64,000 bases of DNA from the human T2T-CHM13v2.0 reference genome, Homo sapiens. Numbering within the stretch: position 1 is the first letter of the stretch; every line of letters starts with the position of its first letter. The position numbers and the translations under genes were made by a program. This document shows positions 43,128-45,134 of this stretch, one piece after another. The notes below the pieces were generated by a model, which had not been told where the DNA came from, ran no database searches, and saw only the letters and a list, made by a program, of their open reading frames with translations. The DNA lies in the NCBI RefSeq assembly GCF_009914755.1, contig NC_060938.1. The stretch is one strand, 5' to 3'.

Positions 43128-43478
<351 letters not shown>

Positions 43479-43499
43479 TTAACTTTTTAAAAAAGTTGT

Positions 43500-45087
43500 G
43501 GGGAAATGGCGGCTTCAGGAGAGAGCGGGACTTTGGGCGGCGGAGGCGGCACAGAGGAAGCATTTATGACCTCCTACAGTGAGGAATAAAGATGGCATAC
43601 AGCATACCTCATATTCATTCCAACCCTGACAGTGACACCAAGAATGTTTTCCTGGGACTGCCTGGTGCTTGTTCTCCCGGGCCTTGTCTTCAGGGGAAAC
43701 AAATAGAGAAGGGAGACTTGGTTCTAACATCCAAAAATCACATTGAAAGACTGACCCGTCCTGGTTCCTCTTACTTCAATTTGAACCCATTTGAGTTTCT
43801 TCAGATAGATCCTGAAGTTACAGATGAAGAAATAAAAAAGAGGTTTCGGCAGTTATCCATCTTGGTGCATCCTGACAAAAATGAAGATGATGCTGACAGA
43901 GCACAAAAGGCTTTTGAAACTGTGGACAAAGCTTACAAGTTGCTACTGATCAGGAGCAAAAGAAGAGGGTCCTGGATGTAATTTAGGCAGGAAAAGAATA
44001 CGTGGAACACACTGTGAAAGAGAGAAAAAAAAAAAACAATCAAAGAAGGAAGGAAAACCTACGATTGTAGAGGAGGATGATCCTGAGCTGTTCAAACAAG
44101 CTGTATATAAACAGAAAATGAAACTCTTTGCTCAGCTGGAAATTAAAAGGAAAGAGAGAGAAGCCAAAGAGATGCATGAAAGGAAACGGCAAAGGGAAGA
44201 AGAGATTGAAGCTCAAGAAAAAGCCAAACGAGAAAGAGAGTGGCAGAAAAACTTTGAGGAAGGTCGAGATGGTCGTGTGGACAGCTGGCGAAACTTCCAA
44301 GTCAATACAAAGGGGAAGAAAGAGAAGAAAAATCGGACCTTCCTGAGACCACCGAAAGTAAAAATGGAGCAGCATGAGTGACCACCCGGGGTCACAGGCA
44401 CAGAACCTTCCCCCTGCTATCTCCCTTCCTGCTTCGAAGGACTCATTCTTTCCTCCCGCTTCCACCTCAACATAGAGTAGTATTTGCTTTTTAGTCCGTT
44501 TCGTTTTGAATACAATTTAATATCGATCAGAGTAATTCTTTTGTACATTGAAATGAGGGGACTGGTTTAAAAAAAGACCTTCCTCCTCCCTGCCGCTAGA
44601 ACAACCAGGATTGGAAGGTGGCACCATTGGTGCTGCCTTCTCTTCCCACAGCCTGTAACTCAGTGTTTTGTACTTCACTGAATTGTGATGGTTAGAAACT
44701 TCGTCCTAGTTTGTGGAAATCATCCAATTAAACATATTACTTAAAATGGTGTTGCTGTGACGTCAGAGACAGGCCTGGAAGGGGCACTTTGGAAGCCCCT
44801 TGGCTTCAGTTGCTCGCTTCTGGGTGTGCTCCCTTAGAAGGCCCAGATAAGACAGGGAACACCTGTGGGCACACAGAGCAGGCACCTGATGCCCTGATGC
44901 CCTGTGGTGTTTGGCATGTGCCCCCTGTCTACTGACCAATCAGCATGGCATGAGGCCCACGCCACCCAAACCTTTCACTTTCCAAAGAGCTAGCCGTCCT
45001 CCTCCCAGTACCATGGTGTCCTAGCCTGTCTGCATTTGTTAGTAGTAATATTCTTTATGTATAATAAATTTTTATAACCACCCCCCA
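43500..45087 (+). pseudogene. DNAJC8P1: Processed pseudogene of DNAJC8 (SPF31 J-domain protein), includes full 3' UTR; probably DNAJC8P1
   Basis: ATG 43506 MAASGESGT..., J-domain LNPFEFLQ...VHPDKN, C-terminus RTFLRPPKVKMEQ. Frameshift near 43950, TAG at 43984-86, AATAAA at 45063-68, TSD-like AAAAAAGT(T/G)GT at 43489-99 and 45088-98 after a TTTT/AA site. The P1 suffix is from recall. Confidence 0.95.
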
Positions 45088-45134
45088 AAAAAAGTGGTAA
45101 CTATTGTCATAGAGAAGCTTTGCTTTTTGTTGTT

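What the first reader, a model, noticed from the sequence alone, without database searches (positions are those of the whole stretch)
43584..43693. DNAJC8 retrocopy preserves a 110-nt extra exon with a stop-restart design
Seen: after exactly 26 codons (ATG 43506 ... AGT GAG), a 110-nt block that is not in the canonical DNAJC8 CDS interrupts the copy. The canonical sequence resumes at (V/G)KQIEK. The block ends in CAG like an exon end and shows no TSD or repeat signature. It opens GAA TAA, an immediate in-frame stop at 43587-89. Two nt later sits an ATG in strong Kozak context (AAG ATG G, 43592), 34 codons upstream of and in frame with the J-domain. From recall, c.78 is the parent exon1/exon2 junction. 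Inference: L1 retrotransposed an alternatively spliced germline or embryo DNAJC8 isoform. In the parent, that cassette would act either as a poison (NMD) exon of this splicing-associated chaperone, or turn the normal start into a uORF and give the J-protein a new N-terminus.
Basis: partly seen in the sequence, partly recalled or inferred. Interest (0 to 1): 0.82.

Follow-up and report, generated by a model that had tools for sequence, protein, structure and literature searches.

The report
Pseudogene preserves a DNAJC8 poison exon
An old processed pseudogene on chromosome 14 was copied from a DNAJC8 messenger RNA that carried an extra exon from intron 1 with an early stop codon; it is a tidy but ordinary fossil of alternative splicing, and the proposed restart reading frame is closed in the parent gene.

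Summary
In DNAJC8P1, 26 codons of DNAJC8 exon 1 (43506-43583) are followed by a 110-nt block (43584-43693) and then by exon 2.

The block matches one other place in this genome. That place is in intron 1 of the parent DNAJC8 on chromosome 1: a 122-nt segment flanked by a pyrimidine tract plus AG on one side and GT on the other. It lies 2668 nt after exon 1 and 1107 nt before exon 2. So the pseudogene was retrocopied from an mRNA that included a cassette exon. Three other retrocopies that span the exon 1/2 junction lack the cassette.

The in-frame TAA and the AAGATGG are both present in the parent. The exon is therefore a predicted NMD (poison) exon. It also shifts the reading frame, since 122 is not a multiple of 3.

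The stop-restart reading fails in the parent. The parent carries 12 extra nt with a TAG at codon 12 of the cassette-ATG frame. An open in-frame ATG also arises in 4281 of 20000 shuffles of the block.

Cassette divergence (7/110) equals that of the exon 9/3'UTR segment (51/820), so there is no sign of special constraint.

This is a known kind of finding: retrocopies archive transcript isoforms. Interest is low to moderate.

The parts
43489..43499 (+). 5' copy of the target-site duplication (AAAAAAGTTGT). It is preceded by TTTTT, so the junction reads TT/AAAA, as at an L1 endonuclease site.
   Evidence: family D5 (10 of 11 identical to 45088-45098); sequence.
43500..43583 (+). DNAJC8 exon 1-derived part: 6 nt of 5'UTR plus ATG 43506 and 26 codons, ending AGTGAG.
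   Evidence: 94.1% identity over 85 nt to C1:28074839-28074755; 5 mismatches in 84.
43584..43693 (+). 110-nt block derived from a cassette exon in DNAJC8 intron 1. The parent version is 122 nt, C1:28072087-28071966, minus strand.
   Evidence: 7 mismatches in 110 aligned nt plus one 12-nt gap. The parent segment is flanked by ...ttgttttggctatAG and GTcaggg.
43587..43589 (+). TAA in frame with the canonical start codon (second codon of the cassette). Also present in the parent.
43592..43594 (+). ATG in AAGATGG context. It opens a 129-codon frame in the pseudogene. In the parent the same frame stops after 11 codons.
43694..45080 (+). DNAJC8 exons 2-9-derived part, without introns and disabled. 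A 1-nt deletion in the exon 5-derived part ends the 43592 frame at 43981. The AATAAA signal is at 45063-45068.
   Evidence: eight consecutive exon matches; alignment and per-exon counts.
45081..45087 (+). Degenerate remnant of the poly(A) tail (CCCCCCA), running into the A-run of the 3' target-site duplication.
   Evidence: One search compared with the parent 3' end. The tail is short and C-rich, so this part is weak.
45088..45098 (+). 3' copy of the target-site duplication (AAAAAAGTGGT).
   Evidence: family D5.

Best explanation
DNAJC8P1 is an L1-made processed pseudogene. It was reverse-transcribed from a fully spliced DNAJC8 mRNA that contained all nine canonical exons plus a cassette exon from intron 1, so that isoform must have been present in germline or early-embryo cells.

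In the parent gene the cassette is non-productive:
- Its second codon is a TAA in frame with the normal start, giving a 27-residue product.
- Its length (122 nt today) also shifts the frame, so stops follow in exon 2 even if the TAA were read through.
- The stop lies upstream of eight further exon junctions. Under the established 50-55-nt exon-junction rule, the mRNA is a predicted target of nonsense-mediated decay.

Shown here: the origin of the block, its splice-site flanks, and the presence of the TAA and ATG in the parent.

Inferred: germline expression, NMD sensitivity, and an age of roughly 20-35 million years.

I think regulated use of the exon is less likely than low-level non-productive splicing.
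For: -: the block matches only C1:28071965-28072089. This lies between the exon 1 match (C1:28074755-28074833) and the exon 2 match (C1:28070757-28070863) on the same strand.
- the parent segment is 122 nt, preceded by ttctttccaaccttgttttggctatAG and followed by GTcaggg. The pseudogene boundaries coincide exactly with these sites.
- the cassette donor matches the 5' splice-site consensus at 7 of 9 positions; the gene's eight constitutive donors match at 6 to 8. The acceptor has 11 of 17 pyrimidines; the constitutive acceptors have 8 to 13.
- the pseudogene aligns to exon 1, the cassette and exons 2-9 in order, with no intron sequence.
- an 11-nt target-site duplication (10 of 11 identical) at a TT/AAAA site.
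- the parent keeps GAA TAA and AAGATGG. Translating exon 1 + cassette + exon 2 gives MAASGESGTSGGGGSTEEAFMTFYSEE* with further stops downstream.
- the cassette part of a 361-nt parent query matches nothing else in the genome except the pseudogene.
- Carelli et al. 2016 (PMC4772013, passage read) states that retrocopies have served as archives of transcript isoforms, citing Shemesh et al. 2006.
Against: - No transcript data could be consulted. Present-day inclusion of the exon and its NMD sensitivity are untested.
- The pseudogene block is 12 nt shorter than the parent exon, so the copied mRNA and today's exon are not identical in length.
- The cassette donor has C at +3, which from recall is uncommon.
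- The poly(A) remnant is short and C-rich.
- Cassette divergence of 7/110 is like that of the exon 9/3'UTR segment, 51/820. This gives no support for selection on the exon.
Confidence: 0.88

Rival explanations
1. The cassette is a selected, regulated poison exon. Through it DNAJC8, a spliceosome-associated J-protein, tunes its own level by coupling alternative splicing to NMD. This extends the best explanation rather than excluding it.
For: - The splice sites are intact in the parent, and the boundaries are the same as in a copy made long ago.
- 1 of 4 retrocopies spanning the exon 1/2 junction carries the exon. That hints at appreciable germline inclusion.
- DNAJC8 is a component of the human pre-A spliceosome, contacting SF1 and SF3B1 (bioRxiv 10.1101/2022.11.07.515429, passages read). 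From recall, splicing factors often carry such exons.
Against: - Cassette divergence between pseudogene and parent is 7/110 (6.4%). That is about the same as the exon 9/3'UTR segment, 51/820 (6.2%), and above coding exons 3-8 at 1.8-4.2%. From recall, classic poison exons of SR proteins are ultraconserved.
- 1 of 4 is a tiny sample.
- No paper in the library joins DNAJC8 with 'poison exon' (0 papers).
Confidence: 0.18
2. The cassette turns the normal start into a short upstream ORF, and the ATG two nt after the TAA restarts translation to give the J-protein a new N-terminus.
For: - TAA and AAGATGG are both in the parent.
- In the pseudogene the ATG frame is open for 34 codons into exon 2.
- An open in-frame ATG with R at -3 and G at +4 occurs in only 441 of 20000 shuffles.
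- If the 12 nt were gained in the parent after the copy was made, the ancestral exon had this open frame.
Against: - In the human parent the frame stops at a TAG after 11 codons (MAYSIPEIHSN*), so no such protein can be made today.
- The 12 nt sit between two 10-nt direct repeats, CATTCCAACT. Loss by slippage in the pseudogene needs no further change. A 12-nt tandem duplication in the parent would need two later substitutions. This makes the TAG-bearing form the likelier ancestor, though only as an inference.
- An open in-frame ATG of any context occurs in 4281 of 20000 shuffles.
Confidence: 0.07
3. The block is unrelated DNA (a repeat, a small RNA or filler) that entered the retrocopy during or after insertion. 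It does not reflect parental splicing.
For: None found. The block ends in a pyrimidine-rich tract plus CAG, which first suggested to me an intron tail next to exon 2.
Against: - The block matches parent intron 1 at a segment with its own AG and GT, 1107 nt upstream of exon 2.
- There is no target-site duplication around the block.
- No Rfam match falls within the block.
- There are no other genomic copies.
Confidence: 0.01

Closest known systems
Processed pseudogenes as fossils of alternative splice isoforms (Shemesh et al. 2006, PNAS 103:1364; not held in the library, seen only as a citation, content otherwise recalled)
   Same: An L1-made retrocopy carries an exon that is absent from the canonical mRNA. 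The exon maps to an intron of the parent with proper splice sites, and so reveals an alternative isoform expressed in the germline.
   Different: This is one further case in one gene. It concerns a stop-carrying exon in the 5' part of the coding region of a spliceosome-associated J-protein.
Poison (NMD-coupled) cassette exons of splicing regulators, such as those of SR proteins (recalled knowledge)
   Same: A cassette exon that introduces an in-frame stop far upstream of the last exon junction, in a gene whose product takes part in splicing.
   Different: Divergence shows no sign of the extreme conservation typical of those exons. NMD sensitivity and autoregulation are untested.
Upstream-ORF termination-reinitiation giving alternative N-termini
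   Same: In the pseudogene, a stop is followed two nt later by an ATG in good context, in frame with the main protein.
   Different: In the parent gene that frame is closed by a TAG after 11 codons. The resemblance holds only for a dead copy.

Membership tests
L1-mediated processed pseudogene | All parental exons joined without introns | tested here: met
   ten consecutive matches (exon 1, cassette, exons 2-9) at 85-98.5% identity; a single 1598-column alignment to the spliced parent sequence at 93.2%.
L1-mediated processed pseudogene | Target-site duplication at a TT/AAAA-like site | tested here: met
   D5: 43489-43499 and 45088-45098, 10 of 11 identical. TTTTT precedes the 5' copy.
L1-mediated processed pseudogene | Poly(A) tail after the polyadenylation signal | tested here: inconclusive
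   AATAAA at 45063-45068. The parental sequence ends about 45080 (compare) and is followed by CCCCCCAAAAAAA. The A-run is shared with the target-site duplication.
L1-mediated processed pseudogene | Loss of coding capacity | tested here: met
   1-nt deletion in the exon 5-derived part; no ORF longer than 129 codons; the parent encodes 253 residues.
Cassette exon of the parent gene | Maps inside a parental intron, same strand and order | tested here: met
   2668 nt after exon 1 and 1107 nt before exon 2.
Cassette exon of the parent gene | AG acceptor with pyrimidine tract and GT donor exactly at the boundaries seen in the retrocopy | tested here: met
Cassette exon of the parent gene | Transcript evidence (junction reads, ESTs, annotated transcript) | not testable with these tools
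   No annotation or RNA-seq for chromosome 1 is available here. The only DNAJC8 'cassette' found in print (PMC5029452 supplement) spans 2157 nt. That fits the exon 4-to-exon 6 distance (2158 nt coordinates), so it is exon 5.
Poison (NMD) exon | Premature stop in the main frame, more than 50-55 nt upstream of the last exon junction | tested here: met
   TAA at cassette nt 4-6. Eight exon junctions lie downstream.
Poison (NMD) exon | Isoform stabilised when NMD is blocked | not testable with these tools
   Needs RNA-seq with UPF1/SMG1 depletion or cycloheximide.
Poison (NMD) exon | Sequence conservation above neutral (typical, not obligatory) | tested here: inconclusive
   7/110 in the cassette against 51/820 in exon 9/3'UTR. 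This is only one pseudogene-parent pair with no outgroup.
uORF/restart isoform with new N-terminus | Downstream ATG in frame with the main ORF and open to it, in the functional gene | tested here: not met
   the parent frame from the cassette ATG reads MAYSIPEIHSN* (TAG). It is open only in the pseudogene.

The most novel reading that the evidence does not exclude
The intron 1 cassette is an old, regulated poison exon, at least as old as the retrocopy (roughly 20-35 million years). Through it the pre-A-spliceosome component DNAJC8 sets its own level. Inclusion in the germline was high enough to have been captured in 1 of the 4 retrocopies that span the junction. A bolder variant: the ancestral 110-nt form also allowed restart into the J-domain, and the human lineage later closed that frame by a 12-nt gain.
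Probability: 0.15. Interest if true: 0.5.

Novelty: new member of a known kind. Interest (0 to 1): 0.25.

Why it matters
It shows that a stop-carrying DNAJC8 isoform, with exactly these exon boundaries, was being made in the germline when the pseudogene arose. It also shows that the parent still has the splice sites to make it. That gives a concrete, testable candidate for splicing-coupled decay of a J-protein now placed in the pre-A spliceosome and reported as a strong suppressor of TDP-43 insolubility (bioRxiv 10.1101/2025.05.10.653282, passages read). As a kind of finding it is ordinary, because retrocopies are known archives of isoforms. The exon may also already be in transcript catalogues that I could not consult.

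Tried and rejected
- **Extended exon 2.** My first idea was that the block is the tail of intron 1 next to exon 2, used through an upstream alternative acceptor, because it ends in a pyrimidine tract plus CAG. I rejected this: the match lies 1107 nt upstream of exon 2 and has its own GT donor.
- **Repeat or small-RNA origin.** Rfam at E up to 1 gives three sub-threshold hits in 43400-43900. One (HOXA11-AS1_6, 18.6 bits against a gathering score of 50, 43673-43839 minus strand) overlaps the last 21 nt of the block; none lies within it. A 361-nt parent query gives many hits only for its first ~85 nt. I take that part to be an Alu tail from recall of Alu sequence. The cassette part hits only the pseudogene. 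An ancient, diverged repeat such as MIR cannot be excluded, because no repeat library is available here.
- **Literature.**
  - DNAJC8 + 'poison exon': 0 papers.
  - DNAJC8 + 'nonsense-mediated': 19 papers, 15 listed. None was about this exon judging by listing and abstracts.
  - DNAJC8 + 'cassette exon' + NMD: 3 papers.
  - DNAJC8P1: 1 preprint, listing only.
  - The RASL-seq DNAJC8 cassette is exon 5 by interval length, not this exon.
  - Shemesh et al. 2006 is not held.
- **Polarity of the 12-nt indel** could not be settled, because no other primate genome is held.

Full report
**1. Observation**

The sequence is as described.
- ATG 43506 opens 26 codons of DNAJC8 exon 1, ending AGTGAG at 43583.
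- A 110-nt block follows (43584-43693), starting GAATAA and ending CTTCAG.
- Exon 2 resumes at 43694 with GGG AAA CAA ATA GAG AAG.
- TAA at 43587-43589 is in frame with the start, so the frame is 27 codons long.
- ATG 43592 sits in AAGATGG context and opens a 129-codon frame that runs through the block into the J-domain region.

**2. Origin of the block**

The window's genome (human T2T) can be searched. A 295-nt query spanning exon 1, the block and exon 2 gave the following matches besides itself:
- Three collinear matches on the minus strand of contig C1:
  - exon 1 at 28074755-28074833;
  - the block at 28071965-28072089;
  - exon 2 at 28070757-28070863.
- Three other retrocopies, at C1:28295500, C3:139477769 and C8:143105654. 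In each, the exon 1 and exon 2 matches abut with no block between them.

Reading the parent shows a 122-nt segment, C1:28072087-28071966. It is preceded by ttctttccaaccttgttttggctatAG and followed by GTcaggg. It lies 2668 nt after exon 1 and 1107 nt before exon 2.

The pseudogene's block starts and ends exactly at these two sites. That is the signature of a spliced cassette exon.

My own first idea, an extended exon 2 through an upstream acceptor, is thereby excluded.

By crude measures the cassette's splice sites are no worse than the gene's constitutive ones:

| Feature | Cassette | Constitutive sites |
|---|---|---|
| Donor matches to consensus (of 9) | 7 | 6-8 |
| Acceptor pyrimidines (of 17) | 11 | 8-13 |

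The donor does have C at +3.

The cassette has no other copy in the genome. No Rfam match lies within the block; one sub-threshold hit overlaps its last 21 nt.

**3. The retrocopy**

- The pseudogene aligns to exon 1, the cassette and exons 2-9 in order, without introns.
- The parental exons I delimited translate to a 253-residue protein.
- An 11-nt target-site duplication (AAAAAAGTTGT and AAAAAAGTGGT, 10 of 11) brackets the copy at a TT/AAAA site.
- The poly(A) remnant is short and C-rich, which is the weakest hallmark.
- The copy is dead: a 1-nt deletion in the exon 5-derived part closes the frame at 43981.

**4. Divergence and age**

Pseudogene against parent: 82 mismatches in 1574 aligned nt.

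| Segment | Mismatches / aligned nt | Divergence |
|---|---|---|
| Cassette | 7 / 110 | 6.4% |
| Exon 9 with 3'UTR | 51 / 820 | 6.2% |
| Exons 1 and 2 | – | about 6% |
| Exons 3-8 | – | 1.8-4.2% |

I polarised the differences outside the cassette with the chr3 and chr8 retrocopies as references. This assigns 41 changes to the pseudogene, 24 to the parent and 10 as ambiguous. The pseudogene branch is therefore about 2.8% (41 of 1464 sites outside the cassette: 18 of 761 coding, 23 of 703 UTR).

With primate neutral rates recalled as about 1-1.5 x 10^-9 per site per year, this suggests an age of roughly 20-35 million years. This is inference, not measurement.

The cassette has diverged about as much as the UTR, so this single comparison gives no sign of special constraint.

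**5. What the exon does to the message**

In the parent, exon 1 + cassette reads ...FYSE E* (TAA). The exon length (122 nt) also shifts the frame, so further stops follow in exon 2.

The stop lies upstream of eight exon junctions. Under the established exon-junction rule the isoform is a predicted NMD target.

**6. The restart reading**

AAGATGG is present in the parent, but the parent cassette carries 12 additional nt. They lie within an imperfect direct repeat, CATTCCAACTAG / CATTCCAACTCT. They place a TAG at codon 12 of the ATG frame, which reads MAYSIPEIHSN*. The frame into the J-domain is therefore open only in the pseudogene.

Loss of 12 nt between two 10-nt direct repeats needs no further change. 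A 12-nt duplication in the parent would need two later substitutions. I therefore lean towards the TAG-bearing form being ancestral, at about 2:1, but only outgroup genomes can decide.

The layout is also not statistically striking:
- An open in-frame ATG arises in 4281 of 20000 shuffles of the block.
- One with R at -3 and G at +4 arises in 441 of 20000.

**7. Comparison with what is known**

Retrocopies are recognised archives of transcript isoforms (Carelli et al. 2016, PMC4772013, passage read, citing Shemesh et al. 2006). I could not read the Shemesh paper.

DNAJC8 is reported as:
- a component of the human pre-A spliceosome, contacting SF1, SF3A2 and SF3B1 (bioRxiv 10.1101/2022.11.07.515429, passages);
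- a nuclear J-protein associated with SRPK1 (bioRxiv 10.1101/2025.05.10.653282, passages).

A poison exon would fit the habits of splicing factors, which I state from recall.

I found no paper on this exon:
- 0 papers for DNAJC8 + 'poison exon'.
- 19 papers for DNAJC8 + 'nonsense-mediated' and 3 for DNAJC8 + 'cassette exon' + NMD. None concerned this exon, judging by listing and abstracts.

The one DNAJC8 'cassette' in a splicing panel (supplement of PMC5029452) spans 2157 nt. That equals the exon 4-to-exon 6 distance (2158 nt from the coordinates), so it is exon 5. One supplement file of that paper could not be searched.

Transcript catalogues such as GENCODE could not be consulted, so the exon may already be annotated.

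**8. Verdict**

- The origin (a retrocopied alternative isoform, from a cassette in intron 1 with AG/GT flanks) is well supported.
- The poison-exon effect is a sound prediction.
- The stop-restart 'design' is not supported in the functional gene.

This is a new instance of a known kind, of modest interest.

Noticed in passing
L002 (G000:C1:28294075-28297183), match at locus 1419-1819: Another DNAJC8 retrocopy lies only about 220 kb from the parent gene on the same chromosome. Only about the first 525 nt of the mRNA align within the fetched locus, so it is truncated or interrupted. It lacks the cassette.
   Followed up: partly
L005 1380-1520 and about 1800-1860 (parent intron 1, minus strand): The parental cassette sits between two repeats. 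A T-rich tract followed by Alu-like sequence starts 8 nt after the cassette donor. The first ~60-85 nt of the query, about 175 nt upstream of the cassette, match many loci genome-wide. The name Alu is from recall; no repeat library was run. Whether these repeats influence inclusion is unknown.
   Followed up: no
window 43754-43760 (exon 2-derived part) and the chr8 retrocopy (L006): The pseudogene and the older chr8 retrocopy share ACATCC where the parent has ACTTCG (alignment). This suggests two synonymous changes on the parental lineage after these copies were made.
   Followed up: no
window 43247-43446: An Alu-like element ends about 40 nt upstream of the retrocopy's 5' target-site duplication. 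Evidence: a two-arm direct repeat D1, and a sub-threshold SRP RNA match at 43400-43440.
   Followed up: no
PMC5029452 supplement file 1: A clinical splicing panel for myelodysplastic syndromes includes a DNAJC8 cassette event. By interval length it corresponds to skipping of the 95-nt exon 5, which would also shift the frame.
   Followed up: partly
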